Below are positions 1,446 to 49,679 of a stretch of DNA of 64,000 nt, one piece after another. The DNA is from an uncultured Flavobacteriaceae bacterium. GTDB lineage: Bacteria > Bacteroidota > Bacteroidia > NS11-12g > UBA955. A program made the translations under genes and the position numbers. The notes below the pieces were generated by a model. It was not told the DNA's origin and made no database searches. It saw only the letters and a list, made by a program, of their open reading frames with translations. The stretch covers positions 42-64,041 of the forward strand of contig CAZKOM010000004.1 of the NCBI GenBank assembly GCA_964554385.1, given 5' to 3'. How positions within the stretch are numbered: position 1 is the first letter of the stretch; each line of letters starts with the position of its first letter.

Positions 1446-3146
1446 ATGAATAGAAAGCACTTTTTTGAGTCGTTGCTGACGGGCAATAAAATCACTTCAT
1501 CGAAATCAATGCAGGATGAAGGAGATGTTTTAACCCAAAAGACAGTAAATAGACGAACAAATACGGGGATAGCGGAGTATACAGGCATCTTTGGTGATGC
1601 GGAGTTGATGCATCTGCTTCGCAGAAGTTTGTTTGGTGTATCGATGGGTGATATAAAGAAATTTAAAGGCAAAACACTTACTCAAGTGGTTGATACCTTG
1701 CTTACACCTGCTGTAACGCAGCCCAGTCCACCGGTGAATTATTACGGAAATCAAGTGAATGACCCTAATGTACCCTACGGTTCTACTTGGGTAAATGCTC
1801 CGTTGGATCCTAACGTAGAGCCCAATCGAAAAGGTGGGGTGAAAGCTTGGTTTTGGGGGTTGGCTGCTTTTCAAAATGCTGATTTGTTGCAGAAGATGGT
1901 TATGTTTTGGCACAATCATTTTGCCATTCAGTTTTTAGAAATACCAGATTCCAGGGCTTGTTATACCTATTTAAAAACGGTTCATACCCATGCATTGGGC
2001 AATTTTAAAGATTTAACAAAGGCGATTACGATTGACCCCGCAATGTTGTTTTACCTTAACGGTAGATTGAATACAAAACGCGCTCCGGACGAGAATTATG
2101 CCCGTGAGTTGCAAGAGTTATTCACCGTAGGAAAGGGCCCCAATTCCAAATTTACTGAAGACGATGTAAAGGAAATGGCGAAAATCTTAACGGGATGGTC
2201 TATCAATCCATTAACCAATCCCTTTTCCACAGCATTTGTTGCTACCAATCACGATACTACCGATAAAAAATTGTCTTCGTTTTATGGGAATGTAACTATT
2301 AAGGGTAGAACCGGAATAACCGCAGGAGAAGATGAACTCAATGATTTGTTAACGGCCATTTTTGCGGTGGATGAAACGGCGTTGTATTTGTGCAGAAAGC
2401 TATACAAATTCTTTGTTTATTACGACATTGATGACACCGTAGAAACCAACGTTATTGTGCCCCTAGCAAAAGTCTTTAAAGATTCAGGGTACGATATTAA
2501 AACGGTTTTAAAAACACTATTAAAGAGTGAACATTTCTTTGACAATTGGAATCGCGGCTGCATAATTAAAGATCCAATTTCTCAGCAAGCCGGTTTTTGC
2601 AGACAAATGGAGGTGAAATTCCCCAATTCCACTGATTATTTCTTGTATTATCAAATGATGTACTTGGGATTAGCCTTTGGGGAGTTAACACAAATGAATT
2701 ACGGGGATCCGCCAAACGTTGCGGGTTGGCCAGCTTGGTACCAAAAGCCATTGTATCACCGATCTTGGATTAACAGCGATACACTGCCTAAACGAAATCA
2801 GTTTACCGATTATTTATTATATATCGGACATAAAGTGGGGTCGTTTACGTTAATGGCAGATCCTTGGATTGTTGTAAAACAAATGTCCAACCCCGGTGTT
2901 GCCGATGATTTGTTGTCCGAGACCATTTCCTTTTTGGTACCGGAAGATTTAACCACTACACAAAAAGCTAATTTAAAAGCAATTTTGTTACCTGGAGGAA
3001 TTCCAGATTACAACTGGGCCGATGAATATCGTGCGGCAACAACTCCATCGGACCCCAATTATAGTACCTCTTTGGTTTCTGTTACGGCGAAGCTAAAGGC
3101 GTTATTTAAAGCAATCATGAATCTTTCCGAATATCAATTGTCATAA
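1446..3146 (+). CDS. DUF1800 family protein
   Basis: 566-aa ORF with the N-terminal LMHLLRRSLFG motif typical of DUF1800. It is immediately followed by a DUF1501 gene, the canonical pairing. Confidence 0.6.
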   Translation: MNRKHFFESLLTGNKITSSKSMQDEGDVLTQKTVNRRTNTGIAEYTGIFGDAELMHLLRRSLFGVSMGDIKKFKGKTLTQVVDTLLTPAVTQPSPPVNYYGNQVNDPNVPYGSTWVNAPLDPNVEPNRKGGVKAWFWGLAAFQNADLLQKMVMFWHNHFAIQFLEIPDSRACYTYLKTVHTHALGNFKDLTKAITIDPAMLFYLNGRLNTKRAPDENYARELQELFTVGKGPNSKFTEDDVKEMAKILTGWSINPLTNPFSTAFVATNHDTTDKKLSSFYGNVTIKGRTGITAGEDELNDLLTAIFAVDETALYLCRKLYKFFVYYDIDDTVETNVIVPLAKVFKDSGYDIKTVLKTLLKSEHFFDNWNRGCIIKDPISQQAGFCRQMEVKFPNSTDYFLYYQMMYLGLAFGELTQMNYGDPPNVAGWPAWYQKPLYHRSWINSDTLPKRNQFTDYLLYIGHKVGSFTLMADPWIVVKQMSNPGVADDLLSETISFLVPEDLTTTQKANLKAILLPGGIPDYNWADEYRAATTPSDPNYSTSLVSVTAKLKALFKAIMNLSEYQLS

Positions 3147-3154
3147 ACACGGAG

Positions 3155-4747
3155 ATGAAAAGAAGAAGTTTTGTTAAAAGTGCAGCAGCGGCAGGAACGC
3201 TAATGCCATTCACACTGAGTGGAATGGGGGTGAAAACTTACGAGGACTCACCTTTGTTACAAGTTCTTGGAAGAAGGGCCGGTGCTACGGATAAAATACT
3301 GGTAATAATTCAGTTAAACGGTGGAAATGATGGTATAAATACCTTGATACCTACCGATCAGTATAGTAATTTAAGTAAGGCCAGAAGCAACGTTTTAATC
3401 CAAGAAAGTAAGGTGTTGTCGTTATCGGGTAAAACGGGGGTAGGTTTACATCCGAAGTTAACGGGGTTGCGTGATATGTACAATGCCGGTTTAGTAAGTG
3501 CGGTGCAGTGTGTAGGGTATCCTCAACCTAATTTTTCTCACTTTCGATCTACGGATATTTGGATGAGTGGATCTAATGCCGATGAGGTGTTTACCACCGG
3601 ATGGATGGGTAGATATTTAGACATGGCTTATCCCGAATTTCCGGATAAATATCCCAATGCCACTATGCCAGATCCATTGGCCATTCAAATCGGTCAGGTT
3701 GTAGGATTACAGTATATGGGTCCTACCGTTACCATGGGAATGGCAATTACCGACCCTTCTACTTTTTACGAATTGGTAGACGGGACAACCGGACAAACTC
3801 CAAGTACCCCTTATGGAGATGAATTGGCCTTTTTACGATTAGTAACGCAGCAAACAAACCAATATGCCGATGTAATTAAGGCAGCTGCTTCCAAGGGTAA
3901 GAATTTGTCTACCAAGTACACAACTCCAGGTAGAAACTCTAGCTTATCGGATCAACTAAAAATTGTTGCAAAATTAATTAACGGCGGATTGAAAACACCT
4001 GTTTATATGGTGAGTTTGGGTGGGTTTGATACGCATAGTCAACAAGTTGACACCTCCGATACCTCCAATGGTTCCCATGCAACTTTGATGCAGCAATTGG
4101 GCGATGCTATTGCCGCTTTTCAGGACGATTTAAAGCTGATGGGTATTCAAGATCGCGTTGCGGGAATGACCTTTTCCGAGTTTGGCAGAAGGGTAATGAG
4201 CAATGCAAGCGATGGTACTGATCACGGTGCCGCCGCTCCTTTGTTTGTTTTTGGTACATCGGTTCAACCGGGAATTATTGGTAGTAACCCTACTATTGCA
4301 TCGACTGTGACTGTTAACGATAATTTACCAATGCAATTTGATTTTAGACAAGTGTATGCTTCGGTGTTGCAAGATTGGTTTGGTTTAACGGATACCGAGC
4401 TGAAAGTGGCCATGGGGAATAAGGATTTTAATACGTTACCGATATTCAAAAACAACAAGGCCAAGATTGAAGATTATGTGGACTTAGTGAGTAGAATTTC
4501 GCTGAATGCAATCTATCCAAATCCACACCGTGGTAGAGTAAGTGTAGATTATTTCACGGAGTCGGGCAATTTGCAATTATGCATTTTTGATGCCCGTGGT
4601 ACTTTGATAGATACTGTAGTTTCTGGATGGCATCCCCATGGATCATACACCGTTCAAATCGATACAACTCAGTATGGTCCAGGAAATTACTTTGTGCAAT
4701 TATCACAAGGAGAAAAGCGATTTACTGAAGTTTTATTGGTTCCATAG
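3155..4747 (+). CDS. DUF1501 (sulfatase-like) protein with Tat signal and T9SS C-terminal sorting domain
   Basis: The N-terminus MKRRSFVKSAAAAGTL is a twin-arginine motif. The middle has GGFDTHSQQ and DHG metal-site-like motifs. The last ~80 aa (YPNPHRGRVSVDYF...CIFDARGTLIDTV...GSYTVQIDT...GPGNYFVQL) match the Por/T9SS secretion tail pattern. Confidence 0.65.
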   Translation: MKRRSFVKSAAAAGTLMPFTLSGMGVKTYEDSPLLQVLGRRAGATDKILVIIQLNGGNDGINTLIPTDQYSNLSKARSNVLIQESKVLSLSGKTGVGLHPKLTGLRDMYNAGLVSAVQCVGYPQPNFSHFRSTDIWMSGSNADEVFTTGWMGRYLDMAYPEFPDKYPNATMPDPLAIQIGQVVGLQYMGPTVTMGMAITDPSTFYELVDGTTGQTPSTPYGDELAFLRLVTQQTNQYADVIKAAASKGKNLSTKYTTPGRNSSLSDQLKIVAKLINGGLKTPVYMVSLGGFDTHSQQVDTSDTSNGSHATLMQQLGDAIAAFQDDLKLMGIQDRVAGMTFSEFGRRVMSNASDGTDHGAAAPLFVFGTSVQPGIIGSNPTIASTVTVNDNLPMQFDFRQVYASVLQDWFGLTDTELKVAMGNKDFNTLPIFKNNKAKIEDYVDLVSRISLNAIYPNPHRGRVSVDYFTESGNLQLCIFDARGTLIDTVVSGWHPHGSYTVQIDTTQYGPGNYFVQLSQGEKRFTEVLLVP

Positions 4748-4790
4748 ATTGTTTTTCTATCGATTAATTGAATTTTTTTAAAATAGTTGG

Positions 4791-4819
4791 GTTGAAATTG
4801 GTATAAATTGCTATATTTG
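4791..4819 (+). promoter_or_regulatory. putative sigma-A promoter for tRNA-Gln: -7 TATATTTG at 4812-4819, weak -33 GTTG
   Basis: The 14-mer ATTGCTATATTTGC upstream of the tRNA is shared with the tRNA-Glu promoter. The -7 element lies 11 nt upstream of the tRNA 5' end. Confidence 0.4.
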
Positions 4820-4830
4820 CGACCCCAAAT

Positions 4831-4902
4831 TGCCCTATCGTCTAATTGGCAGGACAGCAGATTTTGGTTCTGTACGTCTAGGTTCGAGTCCTAGTAGGGC
4901 AA
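4831..4902 (+). tRNA. tRNA-Gln, anticodon TTG
   Basis: 72-nt cloverleaf: acceptor TGCCCTA/TAGGGCA with the U1:A72 pair typical of bacterial tRNA-Gln, T-arm CTAGG-TTCGAGT-CCTAG, and anticodon loop TTTTGGT giving UUG. Confidence 0.85.
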
Positions 4903-4966
4903 CAAACAGTAGGTTTGATGATATCCTCGCCGATATTGGTGTTGAGAGACAGTAAAATCGAATTTT

Positions 4967-5944
4967 ATGACATCGTTAATACATCCCGTTAAAATTTTTT
5001 CTGGAACTGCGTCTTCCGCGTTAACCACCAGTATTTGTGAGTATTATGGATCCACTCCAGGCGATATGTCTGTAGCTCGGTTCAGTGATGGTGAATTTCA
5101 GCCAAACTTCAACGAAAGTGTACGTGGCTGTGATGTGTTCATAGTGCAAAGCACCTATCCATCATCGGATAATTTATTTGAGTTATTGATGGCCATCGAT
5201 GCGGCTAAACGTGCGAGTGCCAACTACATTACTGCAGTTATTCCCTATTATGGTTTTGCTCGTCAGGACAGAAAAGATAAACCCAGGGTTTCTATTGCTT
5301 CTAAATTGGTTGCAGATTTATTGAGCACAGCCGGGGCAAATCGGGTAATGACCATGGAATTACATGCTCCTCAGATTCAAGGTTTTTTTAATGTGCCAGT
5401 GGATCACTTGGAGGCTTCAATCATATTTGCTCCGTATATCAAGAATTTACCGCAAGATAATTTAGTATTAGCGGCTCCGGATGTAGGTTCCAGTAATCGT
5501 ATACGCGAAGTAGCGAAGATTTTGAACCTGCCGATGGTTATTTGCGATAAAGAGCGTAAGCGTGCTAATGAAATTGCGAATATGACGGTGATTGGTGATG
5601 TTGATGGTAAGGATGTTGTGTTAATTGATGATATCATTGATACGGGTGGAACCTTGTGTAAGGCTGCTTCAATGTTAACCGAAAAGGGTGCAAAGAGTGT
5701 GCGTGCTCTTTGTTGTCATCCAGTGTTGAGTGGTAAAGCGTATGAGAACATTAACAACTCAATATTAACCGAGTTGGTGGTGACCGATACCATTCCATTA
5801 AAAGGGAAATCGGATAAAATTAAAGTATTATCGGTGGCTCCATTGTTCGCAAGAGCAATTCGTAACGTGCATGAAAACGGAAGTATTAGTTCTCTTTTCA
5901 AGCAGGCCATTGCCAATCAAACCAATATTGATTTTAACAAGTAA
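4967..5944 (+). CDS. prs: ribose-phosphate pyrophosphokinase (PRPP synthetase)
   Basis: 325 aa. IKIFSGTAS...FSDGE, YGFARQDRKDKPR and VLIDDIIDTGGTL are diagnostic of Prs. Confidence 0.9.
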   Translation: MTSLIHPVKIFSGTASSALTTSICEYYGSTPGDMSVARFSDGEFQPNFNESVRGCDVFIVQSTYPSSDNLFELLMAIDAAKRASANYITAVIPYYGFARQDRKDKPRVSIASKLVADLLSTAGANRVMTMELHAPQIQGFFNVPVDHLEASIIFAPYIKNLPQDNLVLAAPDVGSSNRIREVAKILNLPMVICDKERKRANEIANMTVIGDVDGKDVVLIDDIIDTGGTLCKAASMLTEKGAKSVRALCCHPVLSGKAYENINNSILTELVVTDTIPLKGKSDKIKVLSVAPLFARAIRNVHENGSISSLFKQAIANQTNIDFNK

Positions 5945-5965
5945 AAATAATTTAGAAAGAATATT

Positions 5966-6544
5966 ATGAAAACCATTTTATTAAAAGGTGAAGTTAGAAG
6001 TGAGGTAGGAAGCCGCACGGCTAAGGTTTTGCGCAGTGAAGGTCAAGTACCTTGCGTATTGTATGGAACAGGTGGAGAAAACGTAAATTTTGCTGTTTAT
6101 CAGGCCGATTTCAAGAATTTAGTTTACACTCCAAACGTGTATAAAGTGAAGTTGGACTTAGGTTCTAACACATACGATGCAGTTTTGCAAGATATTCAGT
6201 TTCACCCAGTAAGTGATATCATTTTACATTGCGATTTCTTAGCGGTTGACGCTTCAAAGAAGGTAGTAATGGAAATTCCAGTTCGCGTTGTAGGTAACTC
6301 TCCAGGGGTTCGTGCGGGTGGTAAAATGGTGAAGAAAATCAACCGTTTACGTGTTAGAGGTTTGGTTCAAAATTTACCTGATTATATCGATGTTAGCATT
6401 GATACGTTAGAAATCGGTCAGAGTGCTAAAGTTGCCAACTTAACCGTTGAAGGATTTGAAATTTTGGATGCACCAGCTAATGCTATTGTGACCATCAAAA
6501 CTACTCGTGCACTTATGCAGGCTGCTGCGGACGCGAGAAAATAA
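5966..6544 (+). CDS. rplY: 50S ribosomal protein L25 / general stress protein Ctc
   Basis: 192 aa. The N-terminus LKGEVRSEVGSRTAKVLRSEGQVPCVLYG is the L25 signature, and the gene sits in the conserved prs-rplY order. Confidence 0.85.
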   Translation: MKTILLKGEVRSEVGSRTAKVLRSEGQVPCVLYGTGGENVNFAVYQADFKNLVYTPNVYKVKLDLGSNTYDAVLQDIQFHPVSDIILHCDFLAVDASKKVVMEIPVRVVGNSPGVRAGGKMVKKINRLRVRGLVQNLPDYIDVSIDTLEIGQSAKVANLTVEGFEILDAPANAIVTIKTTRALMQAAADARK

Positions 6545-6560
6545 TTTTAACAAATTATTT

Positions 6561-6600
6561 AGTAAAAGGGGCGGCTTCTTTCGAGGCCGCCCCTTTATAT
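6561..6600. terminator. bidirectional rho-independent terminator between rplY and the convergent sod gene
   Basis: GGGGCGGCTTC-tttc-GAGGCCGCCCC forms an 11-bp GC-rich stem with a 4-nt loop. It is followed by a T-run on the plus strand (TTTATATTTT) and preceded by an A-run (a T-run on the minus strand). Confidence 0.8.
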
Positions 6601-6659
6601 TTTATGTAAATCAACGTTAATTTTAACTTTAAGTTGATTATTGATTTCTGAAAGAAAAA

Positions 6660-7268
6660 TTATCCGTTGATCGCTTTTTGGTACAAATCGGATACAGCTG
6701 ACCAATTAACTACATTCCAAAACGCAGCAATATAATCAGGTCTGCGGTTCTGGTAGTTTAAATAGTACGCATGTTCCCAAACGTCTAAACCAAGAATTGG
6801 AGTTCCTTTAACATCGGCAATGTTCATCAATGGATTATCTTGGTTTGGGGTGCTAGTAATTACCAATTTGCCATCGTGTACAATTAACCAAGCCCAACCG
6901 GATCCAAATCGTGTGGTTCCAGCGGCGTTGAACTGTTCTTTCATGGCTGCGAATGAACCGAATTGATTATTTATAGCTGCTAATAAATCTCCTGTTGGTT
7001 CACCGCCAGCGTTTGGACCCATTATGCTCCAGAAGAACGTATGGTTCCAATGTCCACCACCATTATTTCTTACAGCCATGCTGTAATCGCTAATGTTCAA
7101 TAGAATTTCTTCCAACGTTTTGGTTTCTAACTCAGTACCTTTAATAGCGTTATTAAGGTTGTTTACATAAGCCTGATGGTGTTTTCCGTGGTGGATTTCC
7201 ATCGTTTTTGCATCAATGTGTGGTTCAAGTGCATTGTGCGAATAAGGCAAGGGAGCTAATTCAAACAT
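6660..7268 (-). CDS. Fe/Mn-family superoxide dismutase
   Basis: MFELAPLPY...[14 protein letters not shown] and DVWEHAYYL...RRPDY motifs. The start is taken at the internal MFEL Met; the ORF track extends it to 7298. Confidence 0.9.
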
Positions 7269-7381
7269 GGTTTTAGTGATTATGATTATTAAACACAAAA
7301 TTACACTAAAGGGTTTTCTTTTTATACATTAAATGCCTTTGTTTCATACTTGTTAGATTTGTAGTAAGTATTTTCTAGAAT

Positions 7382-8014
7382 TTGGACCTGTTTTTTCAAT
7401 ATATCGAAGTATTTTCTGCGGTTCTCGCCTTGCTCTGTGTTTGGTTGGCTGCCATTAATCATGTTTTTAATTGGCCAACGGCTATGCTTAGTTCTTTGGG
7501 TTATATCGTAGTATTCTATCAATCTCAACTGTATTCTGATGCTTTTTTAAATGTTGTTTTTTTAATATTTCAAACATACGGGTGGCTTACTTGGCGAAAT
7601 TCACCCCAAACCGGACCTAGTTCGATGAACGGAAAAACGGTTATTCAATTAATTTTGGTATTGGGATTAATTTATTGGCCTTGGGTTGTGTTTATTACTC
7701 AATACTTACCCCATATTCCTCAATGGCTTTTTGGCGATTCTGCGGGTATTCTTTTGCCACCAAAATACCCTTGGTTGGATGCTGCTTTAATGTTATTGAG
7801 CGTTTTAGCGCTTATTATGCAGTCTAAACGCTGGATAGAACATTGGTACCTTTGGATTTTGGTAGATTTATTTTACGTTCCCATCTATTACTTATCCGGT
7901 AATACCATTACATCCGCTTTGTACTTTTTGTATATCGGCTTAGCAATTTATGGTTACTACCAGTGGTTGCGGATTAAGAATCTGAATCATCCGGCATATA
8001 CATTAGAGAACTAA
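7382..8014 (+). CDS. pnuC: nicotinamide riboside transporter PnuC family membrane protein
   Basis: 210 aa with about 7 TM helices. The N-terminus (IEVFSAVLALLCVWLA...FNWP) and the W/Y-rich QTYGWLTW motif resemble PnuC. Confidence 0.6.
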   Translation: MDLFFQYIEVFSAVLALLCVWLAAINHVFNWPTAMLSSLGYIVVFYQSQLYSDAFLNVVFLIFQTYGWLTWRNSPQTGPSSMNGKTVIQLILVLGLIYWPWVVFITQYLPHIPQWLFGDSAGILLPPKYPWLDAALMLLSVLALIMQSKRWIEHWYLWILVDLFYVPIYYLSGNTITSALYFLYIGLAIYGYYQWLRIKNLNHPAYTLEN

Positions 8015-9242
8015 AATTTTCGGGCAATAATATTTCGTTGGCTGTTTCTAATAATTGTCCAGTAGTTACATCTCTAATAGACTGAACCGTTTCCTGAATT
8101 GGTTGTATGTAGCCTTTTTTAATCAAACTTTGTCCCATGTGGATCATCAAACCTGCTCTACTTTCGTTGGAAACAATTAGTTGTCCGATGTATTGATTTT
8201 TTGCTCTTGACAGTTGTACGGAACCTAAAGACTTCTTACGAAGCTTTTCTAATTCTTTGAAAATTAAGGAAACCGATTTGTAAATGTACTTCGGTTCGCT
8301 GCCAACAAAACAATGGAATAGACCAATCTCATCGAAAGTAGCATATCCACTTTCAACATTGTAAGTATATCCATATTTTTCTCGGATTGCCAAATTCAAC
8401 CGTGAGTTCATCGAGGGTCCACCCAATAAGTGATTGAGTAATAATAAAGACCAACGCTTTTGATTTTGTAACTCATAGGCATAGCATCCTATCATTGCAT
8501 AGGCTTGATTAAACTCGGTTTTTTTCTCTAGGGTAAATGGATCTATTTTTCGGAAAGGTTGCGATGCAATAGGTGAAGCACTTGGTAAAGGGGTTGAACT
8601 TGCAGGAAGAAATTTTTCTAAAGTACTGATAACCCGTTCTATAGAAATATTACCCACTACCGAAAATACCATATTTTGGAATTGGTAGTGCTTCTTAATG
8701 AAGTTTAACAAATCCGTTTGTTCAATTTTATTAACGCTTTCGGGTGTACCCAGAATATTATGTGCTAAGGGATGATCTCCAAATATTCGTTCTTGAAATT
8801 CGTCATAAATATTTTCTTCTGGAGTATCCAAATACATGTTTATTTCATCGATTATCACTTTCTTTTCCTTAACCAATTCTTGTGGTGGAATCGTAGATCG
8901 AAATACAACATCACACAGAATGTCGATTAATTTGCTATAATGATTGGAAGTACTGGTTCCATAAATACTGGTTAAATCTTTGGTAGTGAACGCATTAATT
9001 TCACCTCCCACACTTTCCATTCGGTTTAAAACGTGGATGGTTTTTCGTGTGGTTGTACCTTTAAAAAGCATGTGTTCAAGGCAATGAGCCAGGCCTGGTA
9101 AATGTTCGTCGTCTTTGCTGCCGGCATTGATAGTAAAACCAGCATGAAATAATTGGGTGCCTTTTACTCTTAGGTAGGCAATTCGTAAGCCGTTAGGTAA
9201 ACTTATTATCTGATAGGGGTTTCCTTTTGTGGAAGCTTGCAT
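7974..9242 (-). CDS. M16 family zinc peptidase (insulinase/pitrilysin-like)
   Basis: HxxEH zinc motif HCLEHMLFKGT near the N-terminus, LPNGLRIAY start and 422-aa size. The 3' end overlaps pnuC convergently by 41 bp. Confidence 0.8.
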   Translation of the reverse strand: MQASTKGNPYQIISLPNGLRIAYLRVKGTQLFHAGFTINAGSKDDEHLPGLAHCLEHMLFKGTTTRKTIHVLNRMESVGGEINAFTTKDLTSIYGTSTSNHYSKLIDILCDVVFRSTIPPQELVKEKKVIIDEINMYLDTPEENIYDEFQERIFGDHPLAHNILGTPESVNKIEQTDLLNFIKKHYQFQNMVFSVVGNISIERVISTLEKFLPASSTPLPSASPIASQPFRKIDPFTLEKKTEFNQAYAMIGCYAYELQNQKRWSLLLLNHLLGGPSMNSRLNLAIREKYGYTYNVESGYATFDEIGLFHCFVGSEPKYIYKSVSLIFKELEKLRKKSLGSVQLSRAKNQYIGQLIVSNESRAGLMIHMGQSLIKKGYIQPIQETVQSIRDVTTGQLLETANEILLPENFSSLMYMPDDSDS

Positions 9243-14509: not shown

Positions 14510-15808
14510 GTGAATATACTTTTGTTAGGTTCTGGAGGCAGAGAACATGCCTTTGCTTATAAAATTTGTCAGTCTGAAAGTGTGTCAAAACTCTTTATTG
14601 CACCAGGCAATGCTGGAACTGCAATGTTGGGAGAAAATGTATCCTTAAATCCTACTGATTTATCTGCTGTTTATGCTTTTTGCAAGCAGGAGCATATTGA
14701 TTTACTTATCCCAGGTAATGAAGATCCTCTGGTTGCGGGTTTGGTTGATTATATTTCCGAAAAGTCAGTGGAGGATGGAATAAATATCCGTGTTGCTGGA
14801 CCCAGTAAATGGTGCGCACAATTGGAGTGATCTAAGGATTTCGCGAAAGCGTTTATGCAACGAAATGGAATACCAACAGCACGTTATGAGTCGTTTGGAG
14901 CACATAATTTATCGCAAGCATATTCGTTTTTAGAAACATTAAGTCCGCCCTATGTGCTAAAGGCCGATGGGTTGGCGGCTGGTAAAGGGGTTATTATAAC
15001 AGAATCTTTACTAGAGGCTAAAGAGGCACTTGCAGAAATGACCCAACAAGGTAAATTTGGCAAAGCCGGTGAGGTAGTGGTGATAGAAGAGTTTTTAAAG
15101 GGAATAGAGTTAAGTGTTTTTGTGGTAAGTGATGGAAATACATGGCAATTATTAGCTTCGGCTAAGGATTACAAAAGAATTGGGGATGGAGATACCGGAT
15201 TGAATACAGGCGGTATGGGGGCAATTTCTCCGGTGCCTTTTGCCGATGAGGAGTTCATGAAAAAAGTAGTGGATCGGATAGTGGAGCCAACATTTAGCGG
15301 ATTGAAGAATGAAGGTCATCCTTACAAAGGGTTTCTATTTGTAGGATTGATGAATGTAGACGGAGATCCTATGGTGATTGAATATAATGTTCGAATGGGT
15401 GATCCCGAGACAGAAGCCATTTTTCCACGATTGGACTCGTCATTATTGGACTTATTGCATTGCATTGCAACTGAAAATTTGCACAACTACAAAGTAGTAT
15501 TAAACGCTTCAACGGCAGCTACCTTGTTTTTGGTTTCTGCAGGATACCCCGGAGATATTGAAAAAGGTAAAGCAATCACATTACCGGTTGAAAAGGATGA
15601 ATTACTGCACGAACAATGGATATTTCATGCAGGAACAGCTATCAAAAATGGTGAATTAGTAACTAACGGGGGAAGAGTAATTGCGGTTACTTCGTTGGGT
15701 GACTCAATTGTATCGGCATTAGACCGATCCAATGAATTGGCTTCTAAGATTCAATTTGAAGGTAAATATCAGCGAAGTGATATAGGATTAGATTTACTTA
15801 GAAAGTAG
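14510..15808 (+). pseudogene. purD: phosphoribosylamine--glycine ligase (PurD) interrupted by an in-frame TGA at 14828-14830
   Basis: ORF 14510-14830 is the PurD N-domain (MNILLLGSGGREHAFAYKI) and ORF 14855-15808 is the ATP-grasp and C-terminal domains (LKADGLAAGKGV). Both are in the same frame. The stop replaces the Gly of the conserved AAQLEGSK motif, giving CAQLE*SK. Confidence 0.75.
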
Positions 15809-16514: not shown

Positions 16515-17234
16515 ATGTTGCTTTCATTATTAACATTGCTACAAACCGCGGGAACCAATGTGGATCCAGCAGCGGCAGCTCAACAACAACAACAGGCTGC
16601 TAAAGTTGCCGAAGAAGGAATTCCCATGTTATCGATCATGGTTAAAGGTGGATTCGTAATGGGTTTATTGGCCGTGTGCGTATTGTTAACCATTTATTTT
16701 ATCATCGAACGATTTATTTATATCAATAATCGCTCGAAGATTGATCTTACCTTGGTTAGTGCGATCAAGGATAATTTGAAAGAAAACCGATTTGATTCTG
16801 CTTATCAGTTGTGTGCCAGAACCAATACAGCACAAGCACAAATGATGGCTACAGGATTAAATTTATTGGGTGCGAATTTGCGTGAAATAGAAAGTGCCAT
16901 GGAGACCAGAGCTAATATTGAATTGAGTGCCATGGAAGGCAACTTGTCTTATTTAAGTCTTATTGCTCGTATTGCACCGATGTTGGGATTTGTGGGAACC
17001 ATTTGGGGGGTAATTAATATTTTCTATACTGTTGCCCAGGTGGGTGGTTTAGAGATTGGTGCCATTGCCGATGGTTTGTATATTAAGTTAGTAACCAGTT
17101 TTGCGGGTTTGTTGGTGGGTATAATCTCTTTCTTTGGCTATCAATTGTTTATGCGTAAGATTGATAAGTTTGCTGAAAGATTGCAGGAGCAATCATTGCA
17201 GTTGATGGAATTACTTACTAAGTCTAACCATTAA
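16515..17234 (+). CDS. exbB: MotA/TolQ/ExbB family proton-channel protein
   Basis: 239 aa with a signal-like N-terminus, a Gln-rich linker and three TM helices in ExbB arrangement. It is followed directly by exbD. Confidence 0.75.
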   Translation: MLLSLLTLLQTAGTNVDPAAAAQQQQQAAKVAEEGIPMLSIMVKGGFVMGLLAVCVLLTIYFIIERFIYINNRSKIDLTLVSAIKDNLKENRFDSAYQLCARTNTAQAQMMATGLNLLGANLREIESAMETRANIELSAMEGNLSYLSLIARIAPMLGFVGTIWGVINIFYTVAQVGGLEIGAIADGLYIKLVTSFAGLLVGIISFFGYQLFMRKIDKFAERLQEQSLQLMELLTKSNH

Positions 17235-17244
17235 TTTTTAAACT

Positions 17245-17691
17245 ATGAAAATTGGAAGAAGAAGGCGCGAAGAAGCGGAAGTTGAATCTTCGGCGATGAA
17301 CGACATCATGTTTTTCTTGATGTTATTCTTCCTAATTGCTTCTACGTTGGCAAATCCCAATGTTATTAATATTACGCTTCCTAAAGCAAAAACCACAACA
17401 GCAGTTCATACAAAAACGTTGCCCATTACCGTGAAAGTAGCCGGTAAGGGTACTGAGAATGAACAGGTTCAAATTTATTTTGAGCAAAAAATGGTTGCAT
17501 TTGAAGATATGGAGGCTATACTTACTGAAGAACGAGATAAGTACGCCGATCCTGCAAATCCACAAAATGGATTAAACGTTGTATTGCGTTTAGAAAAAGA
17601 TTTGGAGGTTCAGGACATGGTAGACGTTATGCAAGTGGTAGCCAATTTGGGTATTAAAATGGTGCTTGCCACCGATAAATCAACTAAATAG
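17245..17691 (+). CDS. exbD: ExbD/TolR biopolymer transport protein
   Basis: 148 aa. The N-terminus MNDIMFFLMLFFLIASTL is a single TM helix, with the periplasmic domain typical of ExbD. Confidence 0.8.
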   Translation: MKIGRRRREEAEVESSAMNDIMFFLMLFFLIASTLANPNVINITLPKAKTTTAVHTKTLPITVKVAGKGTENEQVQIYFEQKMVAFEDMEAILTEERDKYADPANPQNGLNVVLRLEKDLEVQDMVDVMQVVANLGIKMVLATDKSTK

Positions 17692-17704
17692 TCTCCGATA
17701 CTCC

Positions 17705-19003
17705 GTGATTATTAGAGTATTTAATTGCGGGCTTTCAATTTTACTGGGTTTATCATCCACCTTTGTCAAGGCGGATAACTGTGTTTTGTTAAATGGAACT
17801 TCGGACACCTCCAGAGGAAAGGAGGATTTATCGGATTATTTTCAAGTAGAAGTAATGCGCGGATTTTTGGCTGCTCATACTCAAGGGATGCAGGAATTGT
17901 ATCAGCATACGTATGGGGTACAGGTTCATTTTCAGCGTTCTATGTTGCGAAATCGTTTTCATCCCAATCAGTTTAAAAAACCCCTGTATTACGGAACAAC
18001 TATAAATTATCAGAATTTAGGCAGCCCAGCTGCTGGTATTGCAGTTGGACTGGGATTTTCTTTATTTATTCCTGCGGGTGAAACGCAAAAAACGCGTTTT
18101 ACCGTTGGAATGGGTGGTGGTTATTTAAGTAAACCCTACTCCTTGGAAAATCCTAAAAATATTGCCATTGGCTCCCATATCAATGGGATGATGCGATTGG
18201 GAATTCAACGGGATATTTGGCCAACAAATGTGTCAAATAGTAGATCTACCGCCCAAATAAATATTGGAAGGACTCATTTTTCCAATGGTAATTGGCGTCA
18301 GCCTAATTTGGGGGTAAACATGCCCTATTTGTCATTATCGTATCGGTATAAATTTGAAATAAATCCTCAAGAATCGCAATCTGTGCTCGGCGATAGAAAT
18401 AGATCAACGAAACAATGGTTGAAGATCCAAGAACATTCAACCAGGATAAAGGAGTTAAATGCCAGCATTGAACAGGGATTAAAGAAAAGAATTTTAGGTA
18501 CCTTAATAACTAAAAATGGTGTTATTAATAGAACTTGGGATATAATAGGTGGATTGCGGGTTGGACGAAGGCAAATGGAGATTGATCAAGAGGCGAATTT
18601 TACGGTAGGGATAGTAGAAGTGTTGGCGGAGAGACAGTACACATTCCATGAATTAACAACCAATAAAAACTTGCGGTCCTATTCAGCGCATCCCCATGTA
18701 GGATTAACAGTATTCTTAGATAGAACCTATCAATACAATAAGCCCAATCCGTTGCCTCAGTATAACTTTGCTAAAACAACGGAATTAGCGGCAATTATTG
18801 GAAATCGATATGTTTTTGGAAGAGTGGGTGTTTTAACCGATGTTGGGTTTTACTTATACCGTCCTTCTGATTCAAAACGAAGGTATTTTCAAGCATTAGG
18901 TTTGAGTTATTTAGTTAATTCCAAGTTGATATTAACCGCAAGATTAAAGGTACACTTATCTGCAGCCGATTATATTGAATGGGGAATGGGATATCGATTT
19001 TAG
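17705..19003 (+). CDS. outer-membrane beta-barrel protein, PagL-like acyloxyacyl hydrolase (lipid A deacylase) family
   Basis: A GTG start gives the signal peptide VIIRVFNCGLSILLGLSSTFVKA. THFSNGN resembles the His-x-Ser-Asn-Gly catalytic motif of PagL-type deacylases, and the C-terminal ...GMGYRF ends in an aromatic residue as beta-barrels do. The ORF-track start at 17666 overlaps exbD. Confidence 0.4.
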   Translation: MIIRVFNCGLSILLGLSSTFVKADNCVLLNGTSDTSRGKEDLSDYFQVEVMRGFLAAHTQGMQELYQHTYGVQVHFQRSMLRNRFHPNQFKKPLYYGTTINYQNLGSPAAGIAVGLGFSLFIPAGETQKTRFTVGMGGGYLSKPYSLENPKNIAIGSHINGMMRLGIQRDIWPTNVSNSRSTAQINIGRTHFSNGNWRQPNLGVNMPYLSLSYRYKFEINPQESQSVLGDRNRSTKQWLKIQEHSTRIKELNASIEQGLKKRILGTLITKNGVINRTWDIIGGLRVGRRQMEIDQEANFTVGIVEVLAERQYTFHELTTNKNLRSYSAHPHVGLTVFLDRTYQYNKPNPLPQYNFAKTTELAAIIGNRYVFGRVGVLTDVGFYLYRPSDSKRRYFQALGLSYLVNSKLILTARLKVHLSAADYIEWGMGYRF

Positions 19004-20214
19004 GGGTTGTAACTGGACCAATCTCCAATAATAAATCGGAAATATAAACCGAAAGAGAGTAAAAAATCATTGGTTTTTAGATCTAAACCAGGCTCTAGTC
19101 GAAATTCCGAAACTGTATTATTCGTCCAACGCTTTAAGTAAGCATATCGAAGAAAAACCACTTCTTTTTGATGGATGTTTTTGTATGGATTACTCAAATT
19201 TACACAACCATAAATGGGTGCACCGAGCGCAGAGTGAAATTCATTGGCATTCCAATAGGTGCCTACTAATCGGTGGTTTTGCTGGATGAAATAAGAGATA
19301 TTCACTAAATGACCAAAACCATTTTTGTAAGGTTGTTGGGGTTGAGGGGAAAAATCCAATGATTGAATACCGTAATATTCGGCTTGTAAGGTTTTAGTTT
19401 TCAAGCGCAGACCAAGGCCAGAATTATTTTTGTTTTGAATGGGTTGGGGCTGTTTGAGGTTTTCACCACCCTGATGCTGATGAATCATGAATGCAGGAAC
19501 CTCGATAGAAAAACTTGAAATATTGCTTATTTTTGGACTTAGCAATATGAAACTGGAGGAAAAACCTCCAACAATAATTTCCTGCTGTGATGTTTCAATA
19601 ATTGCTTGTTGTCGCCAATTTAACCAAGTGTGCCAACGAAATAATTTACTATTTCGATTCCAAGCTAAACCGTATTCTATCGGTGATTTTAAAGCCCATT
19701 CATAATTAAAGACTGCTTCGGGCAAATTGTGATTTACATGTCCATCGATGTTTCCTGCGATAATCGTTGATTTTGGTGTTTGTAGCGTTAATCGAACGAT
19801 GGGTTTTAGTTGAACTTGATTCGATAGTTTTTGGTCAAAAGGAAATTGCAACATGGCTCCTAATGAATAGGTTACTTGTATATCAGTACCCGAATTCTGA
19901 TATTCAACGACACTCCATAACCGTTGTCCGATGACGGTTTCACCGGGGTTGGTAGCTTGAAAATACTCGTTGTTTTTGGTGTATTGAAGTCCCCCGATTT
20001 GCAGGTAGGGTTTGTTGTTTTTTCGTCGATTTCGATTTTTTAACGGCTCAAAATTAAATTGTTCAATACCCTGTGCATTAGAATCTATAGGTACATCGCG
20101 AGGTTGAATTTTGGGAGTTCGAAATATTTCGTTTTGCCATTGGGCCCAAAGGGGACTGTTCCCAAGTAGAAGGAAACCCATTAAAATAAATAGGGGTTTG
20201 GACATGGAAGTCAT
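19000..20214 (-). CDS. hypothetical secreted protein
   Basis: 404 aa with the signal peptide MSKPLFILMGFLLLGNSPLWAQ. No recognisable domain. Convergent with the PagL-like gene. Confidence 0.4.
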   Translation of the reverse strand: MTSMSKPLFILMGFLLLGNSPLWAQWQNEIFRTPKIQPRDVPIDSNAQGIEQFNFEPLKNRNRRKNNKPYLQIGGLQYTKNNEYFQATNPGETVIGQRLWSVVEYQNSGTDIQVTYSLGAMLQFPFDQKLSNQVQLKPIVRLTLQTPKSTIIAGNIDGHVNHNLPEAVFNYEWALKSPIEYGLAWNRNSKLFRWHTWLNWRQQAIIETSQQEIIVGGFSSSFILLSPKISNISSFSIEVPAFMIHQHQGGENLKQPQPIQNKNNSGLGLRLKTKTLQAEYYGIQSLDFSPQPQQPYKNGFGHLVNISYFIQQNHRLVGTYWNANEFHSALGAPIYGCVNLSNPYKNIHQKEVVFLRYAYLKRWTNNTVSEFRLEPGLDLKTNDFLLSFGLYFRFIIGDWSSYNP

Positions 20215-23992: not shown

Positions 23993-24712
23993 ATGTTTAT
24001 AAAAAAATTGGGTAAGGAAATAGGTACGGGCTTTTCGGAGTTAATGTTTCCAAATATTTGTGTTGTTTGCAATGATTTATTAATTGGAACAGAGACTGGG
24101 ATATGCAGTATTTGTTGGAATAATATGCCCTATTCGCCATGGCGTTTTAATGACCAGAACCCTATAGTTAAAGCATTATGGGGCAGAAGTTTGTTTCATG
24201 CCGGATTTCATTTGTTATCGTATCGGAAAGGATCCATAGCCTCGCGTGTTATACATTCGATAAAATACGAAAATCAACAATATTTGGCTGAGATGATGGG
24301 CAGGCAAATCGGATTGGAACTAAGAAACAATAGTTTTTTGGTTCCATTGGATGGGATTGTGGCGATACCGATGCATCCCAAAAAGCAAAAGTTTCGTGGG
24401 TATAATCAAGCGGAGTTATTAGCAAATGGTATTTCTGAAGTGATTTCAAAACCTGTAATTTCTGGATTATTAACCCAAACAAGGCAAACTCACACTCAAA
24501 CGGCAAAAGGCCGAGAGGATAGATCGATGAATACGGGCAATAAATATCTATGTAATGTAAATTTTTCATTTAATTCATTAAAGCATGTTTTATTGGTAGA
24601 TGATGTAATGACCACGGGTTCAACGCTACAAGCCGCAGAAATGGCCATTCGACAGAATTACAGCGTACAGAATCTACAGCTGAGCATCGCAACTTTGGCC
24701 TACGTATTTTGA
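23993..24712 (+). CDS. comF: ComF family protein (double zinc-ribbon plus phosphoribosyltransferase domain)
   Basis: CVVCN...CSICWNN zinc-ribbon cysteines, and the C-terminal PRTase motif VLLVDDVMTTGSTL. Confidence 0.7.
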   Translation: MFIKKLGKEIGTGFSELMFPNICVVCNDLLIGTETGICSICWNNMPYSPWRFNDQNPIVKALWGRSLFHAGFHLLSYRKGSIASRVIHSIKYENQQYLAEMMGRQIGLELRNNSFLVPLDGIVAIPMHPKKQKFRGYNQAELLANGISEVISKPVISGLLTQTRQTHTQTAKGREDRSMNTGNKYLCNVNFSFNSLKHVLLVDDVMTTGSTLQAAEMAIRQNYSVQNLQLSIATLAYVF

Positions 24713-24759
24713 TTGGGTCTAACGATTGCTTATTTTTGTGTGAAATAGTGAAATTAAAT

Positions 24760-38377: not shown

Positions 38378-38472
38378 GGAGTAGGGAGTAAAATGTTAAA
38401 AAAGGAGTACAAAATTAAGGTTCACTTTGGGATTATCCCTCCTAGCGATGAAATTTGGAGAATATTATCTCT

Positions 38473-49134: not shown

Positions 49135-49623
49135 ATGGAAAATGTATTTCTTTACAACATGGAATGGTCTGTGGTAGTAGGAATCGTTTTGGTTTCTACC
49201 GTTAAGTATGCAATTGGAGTAGGAATGGCCGTTTTGTCGATTTCTTCCCCGTGGCTGGGATTTTTATTTACCTCTTTAGGTGGAATTTTGGGAGTAAGCA
49301 TTTGGGTGTATTGGGGAGAAAAATTGCAATCGTTGTATTTTGATTATCGCAATCGTAGAGGTGTTATTTCAAAAAGATTTTCCAAAAAAAATAGGTGGTT
49401 GGCGCGGGTAAGATCGGAGGGGGGATTGCCAATTATCGCATTATTGGGTCCAGCAATAATTAGTTTGCCTGTTGCTTGTTTTATTGCCACGGGTATGGGT
49501 ATTAGTAGGTGGAAAGTATGGAGAGCAATCAGTATTTCGGTTTTATTGTGGGGGGTGATGTTTTTCGGATTGTTGATTTTCTTTGATATAGATTTATCCC
49601 ATTATTTCCGACATATTTTCTAG
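49135..49623 (+). CDS. hypothetical small membrane protein
   Basis: 162 aa with 4 TM helices and a basic cytoplasmic loop (YRNRRGVISKRFSKKNRWLARVR). No family recognised. Confidence 0.35.
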   Translation: MENVFLYNMEWSVVVGIVLVSTVKYAIGVGMAVLSISSPWLGFLFTSLGGILGVSIWVYWGEKLQSLYFDYRNRRGVISKRFSKKNRWLARVRSEGGLPIIALLGPAIISLPVACFIATGMGISRWKVWRAISISVLLWGVMFFGLLIFFDIDLSHYFRHIF

Positions 49624-49679
49624 TTTTTTTGACTTCTGGGATTACTCATTGTAAATTGTGCGATAATTCATTGATTAGC

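What the first reader, a model, noticed from the sequence alone, without database searches (positions are those of the whole stretch)
1446..4747. DUF1800-DUF1501 pair in which the DUF1501 protein carries both a Tat signal and a T9SS sorting domain
DUF1800/DUF1501 is a conserved two-gene module of unknown function. DUF1501 resembles metal-dependent sulfatases and phosphatases and typically has a Tat signal. Here the N-terminus is a textbook twin-arginine motif (KRRSFVK), which implies export in a folded, possibly cofactor-loaded state. The last ~80 residues look like a Por/T9SS C-terminal domain, which would route the protein across the outer membrane to the surface. T9SS cargo is normally Sec-exported, so a Tat-then-T9SS route is unusual. 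It would place a folded metalloenzyme of unknown activity on the cell surface, with its DUF1800 partner.
Basis: partly seen in the sequence, partly recalled or inferred. Interest (0 to 1): 0.5.

Follow-up and report, generated by a model that had tools for sequence, protein, structure and literature searches.

The report
Tat-signal enzyme with T9SS sorting tail
A two-gene operon in a freshwater Bacteroidota genome encodes a phosphatase/sulfatase-like enzyme that carries both a twin-arginine (folded-protein) export signal and a type IX secretion tail, a combination conserved in hundreds of relatives but left out of current descriptions of type IX secretion, while its partner protein has no export signal of its own.

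Summary
ORF 1446-3146 is a full-length DUF1800 protein. ORF 3155-4747, 8 nt downstream, is a DUF1501 protein with the N-terminus MKRRSFVK and a C-terminal type-A T9SS sorting domain above both curated HMM cut-offs.

The two Tat-signal HMMs fall below their cut-offs. Other evidence is strongly Tat-like. RRxF[LI]K is nearly invariant in 242 of 248 full-length homologues. The h-region is long, uncharged and only mildly hydrophobic. Ten other T9SS cargos from the same genomes all have ordinary Sec signals.

The CTD is present in 118 of 120 close homologues and 77 of 90 divergent representatives. Four of those 77 carry the alternative type-B CTD.

DUF1501 models as an alkaline-phosphatase-superfamily fold. 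DUF1800 is an all-alpha fold with no solved relative. It has no signal peptide, only a conserved RR-like stub.

Best reading: Tat export, then T9SS secretion of a folded metalloenzyme, with DUF1800 probably leaving the cytoplasm as a Tat hitchhiker. The closest parallel is P. aeruginosa PlcHR2, which goes through Tat and then T2SS.

The literature I could search describes T9SS cargo as Sec-dependent, and one prediction tool excludes Tat-signal proteins. This is a new variant of a known kind, of moderate interest, and nothing here has been tested experimentally.

The parts
1446..3146 (+). DUF1800 gene (566 aa). All-alpha protein with no signal peptide and no CTD.
1446..1478 (+). N-terminal RR-like stub of DUF1800 (MNRKHFFESLL): a twin-arginine-like n-region motif with no hydrophobic h-region after it.
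   Evidence: 108 of 113 full-length homologues start M[DN]R[RK]xF[FL]. The longest uncharged run in the first 45 residues has a median of 7 residues and mean hydropathy of about 0.05. The motif is also present in most genomic loci, except the Bacteroidales ones.
1548..1586 (+). Second conserved N-terminal motif of DUF1800 (NRRTNTGIAEYTG), after a disordered linker.
   Evidence: R36, R37, T40, G41 and Y45 are >=90% conserved in alignment A2. Residues 14-35 have pLDDT <50.
3147..3154 (+). 8-nt intergenic spacer (acacggag) between the stop of DUF1800 and the start of DUF1501, implying co-transcription and tight coupling.
   Evidence: Read directly from the sequence. The same gene order and adjacency occur in 34 of 35 loci.
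3155..4747 (+). DUF1501 gene (530 aa): Tat-type signal + alkaline-phosphatase-superfamily catalytic domain + type-A T9SS CTD.
3155..3229 (+). Twin-arginine-type signal peptide (residues 1-25). It has KRRSFVK, an 18-residue uncharged h-region (SAAAAGTLMPFTLSGMGV), a G-x-G putative signal-peptidase site, and then K27.
   Evidence: Motif statistics over 242 homologues: RR+2 = F in 239, RR+3 = L/I in 203, RR+4 = K/R in 190. Median uncharged run is 17 residues, and 234 of 248 have a run of >=13. Disordered in AF2, residues 1-44 below pLDDT 50. Below the Tat HMM cut-offs.
3290..4489 (+). Catalytic alpha/beta domain (residues ~46-445), alkaline-phosphatase superfamily. Candidate metal and nucleophile residues: D59 (GGNDG), S128-H129, D292-x-H294, H308, D356-H357 (GTDHG).
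   Evidence: Foldseek hits to LtaS (E 8e-7), PlcN (3e-6), choline and carbohydrate sulfatases, and MCR-1. The residues are invariant in 55 sequences and invariant or nearly so in 90 divergent representatives. No C/S-x-P-x-R formylglycine motif.
4496..4744 (+). Type-A T9SS C-terminal sorting domain (residues 448-530), a seven-strand beta-sandwich with the YPNP and GxY motifs.
   Evidence: PF18962 35.0 bits and TIGR04183 31.0 bits. Strands at 448-529 with pLDDT 84-92. The family profile hits solved CTDs 8glk_D, 8qb1_A, 8glj_D and 9whd_A.

Best explanation
The locus is a two-gene operon.

DUF1501 is a metal-dependent hydrolase of the alkaline-phosphatase superfamily. It most likely uses a Ser nucleophile and two metal sites, like a phospho(di)esterase, and it is not a formylglycine sulfatase. 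It is made with a twin-arginine signal peptide, so it folds (and probably takes up its metals) in the cytoplasm and crosses the inner membrane through Tat. [quoted passage not shown] DUF1800 is the obligate partner. It has no export signal of its own in this clade. It most likely binds DUF1501 in the cytoplasm and crosses the inner membrane as a Tat hitchhiker. Whether it also follows DUF1501 through T9SS is open.

Shown here: domain identities, fold class, the CTD, conservation of the RR motif and of the pairing, and absence of any signal on DUF1800. Inferred: actual use of Tat, actual T9SS secretion, the metal/nucleophile assignment, hitchhiking, and the substrate.
For: - Domains and CTD are above curated cut-offs. 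The CTD part of the family profile matches solved T9SS CTDs.
- The CTD is present in 118 of 120 close homologues. Among 90 mutually <50%-identical representatives, 73 have a type-A and 4 a type-B CTD. Swapping between two unrelated T9SS signals argues that the tail is there for secretion.
- The genome uses T9SS: a second CTD cargo lies at 24709-27960.
- The RR peptide is the only possible export signal in the ORF, because no upstream start exists. RRxF[LI]K is conserved in 242 of 248 homologues at 38-97% identity, across at least six orders plus Ignavibacteria.
- The h-region is mild (max 12-aa hydropathy 1.34; family median 1.53). Ten other CTD cargos from the same genomes have a median of 2.62, and none has an RR motif.
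- A basic residue follows the h-region in 76% of homologues.
- DUF1501 proteins elsewhere are predicted Tat substrates (PMC5122149; PMC3542564), and 7 of 8 sampled proteobacterial ones have RR signals.
- The fold is alkaline-phosphatase superfamily, with invariant D/S-H/D-x-H/D-H residues.
- DUF1800 carries its own Sec or lipoprotein signal in 5 of 8 proteobacterial pairs, so its site of action there is extracytoplasmic. It has no such signal in about 150 Bacteroidota homologues.
- Precedents: Tat hitchhiking (PMC10924467); PlcHR2, secreted as a folded heterodimer via Tat then T2SS (PMC3601568); the Tat/T2SS mosaic model (PMC4899797).
- Tat and T9SS machinery coexist in a flavobacterium (PMC5561996).
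Against: - Both Tat-signal HMMs are below threshold, and only 3 of 90 relatives pass the Pfam model at E<=0.01.
- No dedicated Tat predictor could be run.
- The scanned ORFs of the window include no Tat or T9SS machinery genes, and the rest of the genome could not be examined.
- T9GPred based its 'Sec signal, no Tat signal' rule on the features of 102 experimentally verified T9SS cargos, so there is no experimental precedent for this route.
- The homologues are related by descent, so their counts are not independent observations.
- Signal-peptide calls on DUF1800 and on the control proteins were made by eye and by hydropathy, not by a trained predictor.
- 3 of 8 proteobacterial DUF1800 proteins also lack a signal, so a cytoplasmic role is not excluded.
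- No structure of the complex could be predicted.
Confidence: 0.6

Rival explanations
1. Sec then T9SS. The RR motif is an inherited relic of the DUF1501 family that no longer directs Tat export in this clade. The protein crosses the inner membrane unfolded through Sec, like all verified T9SS cargo, folds in the periplasm, and is then secreted by T9SS.
For: The Tat HMMs are subthreshold. Reviews describe T9SS cargo as Sec-exported, and T9GPred's rule built on 102 verified cargos requires a Sec signal and no Tat signal. The h-region is 18 uncharged residues, which Sec could in principle accept.
Against: A relic would drift, yet RR, F at +2, L/I at +3 and K/R at +4 are each kept in 79-99% of 242 homologues. 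The h-region is much less hydrophobic than in 10 Sec-type CTD cargos from the same genomes (median 1.53 vs 2.62). A basic residue right after the h-region, which disfavours Sec, is present in 76% of homologues.
Confidence: 0.2
2. Tat export to the periplasm only. The C-terminal beta-sandwich is a structural or binding Ig-like domain that merely resembles a CTD, and the enzyme works in the periplasm like DUF1501 proteins of Proteobacteria.
For: DUF1501 proteins outside Bacteroidota, and one in the Bacteroidota member Chondrinema, lack any CTD and are presumably periplasmic. Pfam also gives a weak FlgD_ig hit on the same region.
Against: Two independent curated CTD models pass their cut-offs. 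The domain sits at the extreme C-terminus in every homologue. The family profile matches solved T9SS CTDs, including chains deposited as a Por secretion system C-terminal sorting domain-containing protein. Four of 90 relatives carry the unrelated type-B CTD (CHU_C) instead. Lectin-type inserts, where present, fit an extracellular substrate.
Confidence: 0.08
3. This rivals only the hitchhiker step. DUF1800 stays in the cytoplasm in Bacteroidota and acts as a dedicated maturation or proofreading factor for DUF1501, for example metal loading or signal-peptide binding. Its RR-like N-terminal stub is a remnant of a lost Tat signal, as in non-exported NarG (from my own knowledge).
For: There is no signal peptide or CTD on about 150 Bacteroidota DUF1800 proteins. 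3 of 8 proteobacterial ones also lack a signal. The RR-like stub without an h-region looks like a degenerated signal.
Against: At 60 kDa it is far larger than known Tat chaperones (from my own knowledge). 5 of 8 proteobacterial orthologues have their own Sec or lipoprotein signal, so the protein works outside the cytoplasm there. A stub kept under selection in 108 of 113 homologues suggests a current function, not decay.
Confidence: 0.3

Closest known systems
Pseudomonas aeruginosa PlcH-PlcR2 (PlcHR2) and PlcN: Tat-exported phospholipases C secreted by the Xcp type II system
   Same: An enzyme with an alkaline-phosphatase-superfamily fold (the Foldseek hits for DUF1501 are all of this fold class, and PlcN 9gy2 ranks second). 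It has an N-terminal twin-arginine signal and is co-expressed from one operon with a partner that lacks its own signal. It is exported folded through Tat and then carried across the outer membrane by a separate secretion system (PMC3601568; PMC4899797).
   Different: The outer-membrane step there is T2SS, with no linear signal. Here it would be T9SS, with a C-terminal CTD. PlcR2 is a 17-kDa chaperone unrelated to the 60-kDa DUF1800. Sequence identity to PlcN is about 9%, so this is an analogy, not family membership. The PlcHR2 route is experimentally shown, and this one is not.
Canonical type-A CTD cargo of T9SS (e.g. gingipains, mirolase, F. johnsoniae cargo)
   Same: A C-terminal ~80-residue beta-sandwich matching TIGR04183/PF18962, homologous to solved CTDs, in a genome with other CTD cargo.
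   Different: All verified cargos are described as having Sec signals. This family has a conserved twin-arginine signal and an operon partner with no signal.
DUF1800-DUF1501 modules of Proteobacteria, and DUF1501/PSCyt-PSD1 modules of Planctomycetes-Verrucomicrobia
   Same: The same two Pfam families, the same gene order and adjacency, and an RR signal on DUF1501.
   Different: Those DUF1501 proteins are about 390-460 aa without a CTD. Their DUF1800 partner often has its own Sec or lipoprotein signal (5 of 8). The DUF1800 partners in this clade are mostly longer and carry an N-terminal extension with an RR-like stub and an RRTNTG motif.
Tat hitchhiker pairs (E. coli hydrogenase HyaA/HyaB and HybO/HybC, DmsA/DmsB)
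   Same: One subunit carries the twin-arginine signal. The adjacent-gene partner has none and would be exported only as part of the folded complex (PMC10924467).
   Different: Those are redox enzymes that stay at the inner membrane or in the periplasm. Their signal-less partners do not keep an RR-like stub. Hitchhiking is demonstrated there and only inferred here.

Membership tests
DUF1800 (PF08811) | Match to the Pfam profile above the gathering score over most of its length | tested here: met
   286.9 bits vs cut-off 26.1; profile positions 1-418 of 419.
DUF1501 (PF07394) | Match to the Pfam profile above the gathering score | tested here: met
   77.6 bits vs cut-off 27, but only profile positions 246-382 align. 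Full-length homology to other DUF1501 proteins is shown by phmmer alignments covering residues 1-432.
Alkaline-phosphatase superfamily | Alpha/beta core fold shared with sulfatases, LtaS, NPP and PLC | tested here: met
   Foldseek probability 0.93-1.00 for nearly all of the top 50 hits (one outlier at 0.54), best E 8e-7 (LtaS 4uor), plus PlcN, choline sulfatase and MCR-1. TM-scores are only 0.3-0.4 and identity is about 10%.
Alkaline-phosphatase superfamily | Conserved metal-ligand Asp/His set and a nucleophile after the second core strand | tested here: inconclusive
   D59, S128-H129, D292, H294, H308, D356 and H357 are invariant, and their pattern resembles bimetallo NPP/AP sites.
Formylglycine (S1) sulfatases | C/S-x-P-x-R motif that is converted to formylglycine | tested here: not met
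   No match to [CS]x[PA]xR anywhere in the protein; the candidate nucleophile region reads NFSHFRS. An FGE-family gene next to the pair in L040 is not recurrent.
T9SS type-A CTD cargo (TIGR04183 / PF18962) | CTD profile match above the curated cut-off, located at the extreme C-terminus | tested here: met
   PF18962 35.0 bits (cut-off 27), residues 453-525; TIGR04183 31.0 bits (cut-off 23), residues 453-526 of 530.
T9SS type-A CTD cargo (TIGR04183 / PF18962) | Beta-sandwich fold homologous to solved CTDs | tested here: met
   Seven predicted strands at 448-529, pLDDT 84-92. The profile hits 8glk_D, 8qb1_A, 8glj_D and 9whd_A.
T9SS type-A CTD cargo (TIGR04183 / PF18962) | The host encodes a T9SS | tested here: inconclusive
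   No T9SS core gene among the scanned window ORFs. A second CTD cargo (24709-27960) implies the system is present. The whole genome was not available.
T9SS type-A CTD cargo (TIGR04183 / PF18962) | T9SS-dependent secretion with CTD cleavage | not testable with these tools
   Needs secretome or surface proteomics in wild type versus T9SS mutants.
Tat substrates (twin-arginine signal peptide) | S/T-R-R-x-F-L-K consensus in the n-region | tested here: met
   KRRSFVK at residues 2-8. Family-wide, F at +2 in 239/242, L/I at +3 in 203/242, K/R at +4 in 190/242.
Tat substrates (twin-arginine signal peptide) | Curated Tat-signal HMM above its cut-off (TIGR01409, PF10518) | tested here: not met
   12.1 vs 16.7 bits and 13.5 vs 22.7 bits. 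Only 3 of 90 family representatives reach E<=0.01 for PF10518.
Tat substrates (twin-arginine signal peptide) | Uncharged h-region of at least ~13 residues that is less hydrophobic than Sec h-regions, with a basic residue in the c-region | tested here: met
   18 uncharged residues with mean hydropathy 1.1, followed by K27. Max 12-aa hydropathy is 1.34, against a median of 2.62 in 10 Sec-type CTD cargos. K/R follows the h-region in 183/242 homologues.
Tat substrates (twin-arginine signal peptide) | The genome encodes TatA/TatC, and export depends on them | not tested
   No tat gene among the scanned window ORFs, and the rest of the genome was unavailable. Tat and T9SS do coexist in Tenacibaculum maritimum (PMC5561996).
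Tat hitchhiker pair | The partner lacks any signal, is encoded next to a Tat-signal subunit, and acts outside the cytoplasm | tested here: inconclusive
   The first two features are met. Extracytoplasmic action is inferred only from 5 of 8 proteobacterial orthologues that carry their own signals. Complex formation was not testable.

The most novel reading that the evidence does not exclude
DUF1800 and DUF1501 assemble in the cytoplasm and cross the inner membrane together on the single Tat signal of DUF1501. The RR-like stub of DUF1800 may help dock the complex on TatC. The whole ~115-kDa heterodimer is then taken through the T9SS translocon on the single CTD of DUF1501. That would be the first Tat-to-T9SS route and the first case of a signal-less subunit hitchhiking through T9SS.
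Probability: 0.2. Interest if true: 0.75.

Novelty: new variant of a known kind. Interest (0 to 1): 0.5.

Why it matters
Type IX secretion is described everywhere I could search as a Sec-coupled pathway. At least one cargo-prediction pipeline discards any protein with a Tat signal. This large, widespread Bacteroidota and Ignavibacteria family has both signals conserved, which would extend the 'mosaic' model known for T2SS (Sec or Tat, then one outer-membrane system) to T9SS. It would also show that current cargo catalogues are systematically missing a class.

The family offers a natural substrate for asking whether the T9SS translocon accepts proteins that were already folded, metal-loaded and possibly oligomeric before reaching the periplasm.

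It also gives a localisation clue for two of the more common uncharacterised bacterial families. DUF1501 alone has more than 11,000 representative clusters. The clue is a surface-directed alkaline-phosphatase-superfamily enzyme, sometimes fused to lectin domains, in abundant freshwater heterotrophs, which bears on organic phosphorus, sulfur or glycan turnover.

Tried and rejected
- Sequence searches of both proteins, and of the DUF1800 profile, against PDB sequences found nothing for the catalytic domain or for DUF1800.
- The AFDB library was not installed, so a possible link between DUF1800 and the planctomycete PSD1 partner could not be tested.
- An FGE-sulfatase-family gene directly upstream of the pair in L040 suggested a formylglycine sulfatase. 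It does not recur in 35 loci, and the C/SxPxR motif is absent, so I rejected that idea.
- PA2699, a 'hypothetical' Tat-dependent exoprotein of P. aeruginosa, turned out to be an amidohydrolase, not a DUF1501.
- The T9GPred supplementary table of Tat predictions for verified cargo is not held as text.
- The sigma-70 promoter and terminator scan was at chance level and is not applicable to Bacteroidota promoters.
- Pfam scans of 30 further window ORFs found no tat or T9SS core genes.
- The T6SS paper and the Verrucomicrobia paper that mention DUF1501 gave no functional information.
- Four literature searches for a Tat-dependent T9SS cargo found none. Subscription-only papers are not covered, so this is absence of evidence.


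Full report
**1. What is there**

Each begins at the first start codon after an upstream in-frame stop, so neither can have a longer, missed N-terminus. They are separated by eight bases, TAA-acacggag-ATG.

Pfam assigns the first ORF to DUF1800 (286.9 bits, nearly the whole profile). It assigns the second to DUF1501 (77.6 bits) plus Por_Secre_tail (35.0 bits, cut-off 27, residues 453-525). NCBIfam independently gives TIGR04183, the type-A T9SS sorting domain, at 31.0 bits against a cut-off of 23. The DUF1501 protein begins MKRRSFVKSAAAAGTLMPFTLSGMGVK. The two generic Tat-signal HMMs match this N-terminus only below their cut-offs: PF10518 13.5 vs 22.7, and TIGR01409 12.1 vs 16.7.

**2. Is the C-terminal domain real and conserved?**

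Of the 120 closest database clusters (52-97% identity), 118 are annotated with both PF07394 and PF18962. To avoid bias I searched 1.84 billion cluster representatives with the catalytic part only (residues 1-445). There were 11,246 hits at E<=1e-3 and 1,688 at E<=1e-30.

Of the first 90 representatives, which are mutually under 50% identical, all are DUF1501. Seventy-three have Por_Secre_tail. Four instead have CHU_C, the type-B T9SS signal. A few carry RicinB, PA14 or F5/8-type-C lectin domains. The rest are largely fragments or CTD-less forms.

A profile of these 90 sequences, searched against PDB sequences, hits nothing with its catalytic part. Its C-terminal part hits solved T9SS CTDs: 9whd_A (7e-6), 8glk_D (1e-4), mirolase 8qb1_A (1e-3) and 8glj_D (3e-3). 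The AlphaFold model shows a seven-strand beta-sandwich at 448-529 with pLDDT 84-92.

The same window encodes a second CTD cargo at 24709-27960 (Calx-beta plus Por_Secre_tail, 33.5 bits), so this organism uses T9SS. The chance-resemblance refutation is excluded.

**3. Is the N-terminus a Tat signal?**

No dedicated predictor was available, so I tested the properties that define Tat signals.

- *Motif.* Among 248 full-length homologues, 242 have R[RK]x-hydrophobic-hydrophobic within 30 residues. In those 242, the residue at RR+2 is F in 239, RR+3 is L or I in 203, and RR+4 is K or R in 190. That is the S/T-R-R-x-F-L-K consensus. It is kept at 38-97% identity across Flavobacteriales, Sphingobacteriia, Saprospiraceae, Chitinophagales, Bacteroidales and Ignavibacteria.
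- *h-region.* The uncharged stretch is 18 residues in the window protein. The family median is 17, and 234 of 248 have at least 13.
- *c-region.* The first charged residue after the h-region is K or R in 183 of 242 homologues. That is a feature that disfavours Sec export.
- *Internal control.* Using a CTD HMM, I found ten other CTD-bearing ORFs in the window and the fetched loci. All ten have classic Bacteroidota Sec signals (MKK, a Leu/Ile/Phe-rich core, AQ-type site), and none has an RR motif. Their maximal 12-residue hydropathy has a median of 2.62. The DUF1501 representatives have a median of 1.53, and the window protein scores 1.34 (Mann-Whitney p = 4e-7).
- *Only candidate signal.* The RR peptide is the only candidate export signal in an ORF that ends in a secretion domain. 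It lies in the disordered residues 1-44 of the model.
- *Other phyla.* DUF1501 proteins of other phyla are already predicted Tat substrates (PMC5122149; PMC3542564). Seven of eight proteobacterial examples I read have RR signals.

The HMM failure looks like low sensitivity, since only 3 of 90 family members reach E<=0.01. It remains a tested feature that was not met. The homologues share ancestry, so the counts show conservation rather than independent evidence.

**4. What the proteins are**

The DUF1501 model (pLDDT 78, pTM 0.74) matches alkaline-phosphatase-superfamily structures. These include lipoteichoic acid synthase LtaS (E 8e-7), P. aeruginosa PlcN (3e-6), choline and carbohydrate sulfatases, and MCR-1. 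Identity is about 10% and TM-scores are 0.3-0.4.

Invariant residues are D59 (GGNDG), S128-H129, D292-x-H294, H308 and D356-H357 (GTDHG). They form the kind of Asp/His/nucleophile set seen in bimetallo members of that superfamily. This assignment is inferred. There is no C/S-x-P-x-R formylglycine motif, so the protein is not a classical sulfatase.

Across 35 loci only the pair itself is conserved. Everything else is lineage-specific synteny. Public records name these proteins only 'DUF1501 domain-containing' or 'hypothetical'.

**5. The partner has no export signal**

DUF1800 has no hydrophobic N-terminal segment and no CTD, in the window or in about 150 Bacteroidota homologues.

Instead, 108 of 113 full-length homologues begin with M[DN]R[RK]xF[FL] (window: MNRKHFF). 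That is a twin-arginine-like n-region. It is followed by a polar linker, with a longest uncharged run in the first 45 residues of median 7 and hydropathy about 0. A second conserved motif, RRTNTG..Y.G, comes next.

In eight proteobacterial pairs, five DUF1800 proteins carry their own signals. Ralstonia and Novosphingobium have Sec-type signals. Sphingomonas, Agarilytica and Vibrio THAF190c have lipoprotein-type signals. Three have none. So the protein works outside the cytoplasm at least in those five.

The most economical reading for Bacteroidota is Tat hitchhiking on DUF1501. This is an established mechanism for signal-less subunits (PMC10924467), and it would also explain why the enzyme uses Tat. 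A cytoplasmic maturation role is the main alternative. The function of the conserved RR-like stub is unexplained.

**6. Comparison with what is known**

Reviews state that T9SS substrates have Sec signal peptides (PMC9251779; PMC7073777). The T9GPred pipeline derives its rules from 102 experimentally verified cargos and requires 'no Tat signal'. Four full-text searches found no report of a Tat-dependent T9SS cargo, though subscription journals are not covered.

Nothing in the mechanism forbids the route. T9SS takes folded proteins from the periplasm, and Tat and T9SS coexist in Tenacibaculum maritimum.

The closest precedent is in another secretion system. P. aeruginosa PlcH carries a Tat signal; its paralogue PlcN is the second-ranked structural match to DUF1501 here. 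PlcH is co-expressed with the signal-less PlcR2 and is secreted as a folded heterodimer via Tat and then the Xcp T2SS (PMC3601568). PlcN, PA3910 and PA4140 follow the same Tat-T2SS route (PMC4899797). The present family looks like the T9SS counterpart of that arrangement.

**7. Verdict**

A Tat-type signal and a T9SS CTD on one conserved enzyme are well supported by sequence, conservation and controls. Co-display of DUF1800 is only a hypothesis.
- My best explanation is Tat export followed by T9SS secretion of a folded alkaline-phosphatase-superfamily enzyme, with DUF1800 as a probable Tat hitchhiker. I give it about 0.6 confidence.
- The main rival is Sec export with a relic RR motif (about 0.2).
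- I rate this a new variant of a known kind, with interest 0.5. It contradicts a working assumption of the T9SS field and of its prediction tools, and it is directly testable. It is also a natural extension of the T2SS mosaic model, and it has not been tested experimentally.

Noticed in passing
window 24709-27960 (+): A second T9SS cargo: a 1083-aa protein with two Calx-beta domains and a Por_Secre_tail CTD (33.5 bits). It has an ordinary Sec-type signal (MKKILLGLALLLGIKSGT) if translation starts at an internal Met.
   Followed up: partly
window 14510-15808 (+), stop at 14828-14830: purD (phosphoribosylamine-glycine ligase) is interrupted by a single in-frame TGA...AQLE*SKDFAKAF.... From memory of E. 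coli purD, other PurD proteins have Gly at this position (LEGSK). This could be a GGA-to-TGA nonsense mutation, an assembly error, or an isolated recoding event. Other genes in the window read normally in code 11.
   Followed up: partly
DUF1800 N-termini: window 1446-1478; homologues P0121-P0240; loci L001-L031: A conserved twin-arginine-like stub (M[DN]R[RK]xF[FL]) with no h-region on a protein that has no signal peptide. It is absent from the Bacteroidales orthologues (L025, L026, L028). It is also absent from the signal-less Azospirillum and Vibrio maritimus orthologues, although Pseudoroseomonas begins MDRRAY. Its function is unexplained.
   Followed up: partly
Representatives P0241-P0330 (alignment A4): Four of 90 divergent DUF1501 relatives carry a type-B CTD (CHU_C) instead of type A. 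Single members carry RicinB, PA14, F5/8-type-C, TSP3 or EF-hand domains, which hints at glycan or calcium-linked substrates.
   Followed up: no
L040 5023-6144 and 9713-15254: In a 3.79-Mb genome, an FGE-sulfatase-family gene sits directly upstream of the pair on the same strand. Downstream lie a TonB-dependent receptor, two MauG-like di-haem peroxidases, and an MbnP-family protein that itself carries a T9SS CTD. The FGE neighbour does not recur in other loci.
   Followed up: partly
L017 and L018 (Kapaibacterium / Ignavibacteria MAGs): The same DUF1800 + Tat-signal DUF1501 + CTD-like tail arrangement occurs outside Bacteroidota proper, in Ignavibacteria-group genomes.
   Followed up: no
L035 (Chondrinema litorale plasmid) 2769-8086: A CTD-less Bacteroidota version of the pair (DUF1800 458 aa without a signal; DUF1501 394 aa with an RR signal). 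It sits next to a TonB-dependent receptor, an endonuclease/exonuclease/phosphatase-family gene and an MFS sugar porter, a nutrient-uptake-like context.
   Followed up: no
window 59494-60267 (-): A strong match to (2R)-phospho-3-sulfolactate synthase ComA (313 bits), next to a TPR protein. This is a sulfonate-metabolism enzyme in a Bacteroidota genome.
   Followed up: no
window 56721-59425 (+): Adjacent genes for a DPRP (photolyase-related) protein and an FAD_binding_7 photolyase/cryptochrome-domain protein.
   Followed up: no
window 19000-20214 (-), 38455-40957 (+), 49135-53463 (+): Six sizeable ORFs (162-699 aa) with no Pfam match at E<=1e-3. Several have signal-peptide-like N-termini.
   Followed up: no
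window 16515-19003 (+): An ExbB-ExbD pair followed by an ORF with a PagL-like lipid A deacylase domain.
   Followed up: no
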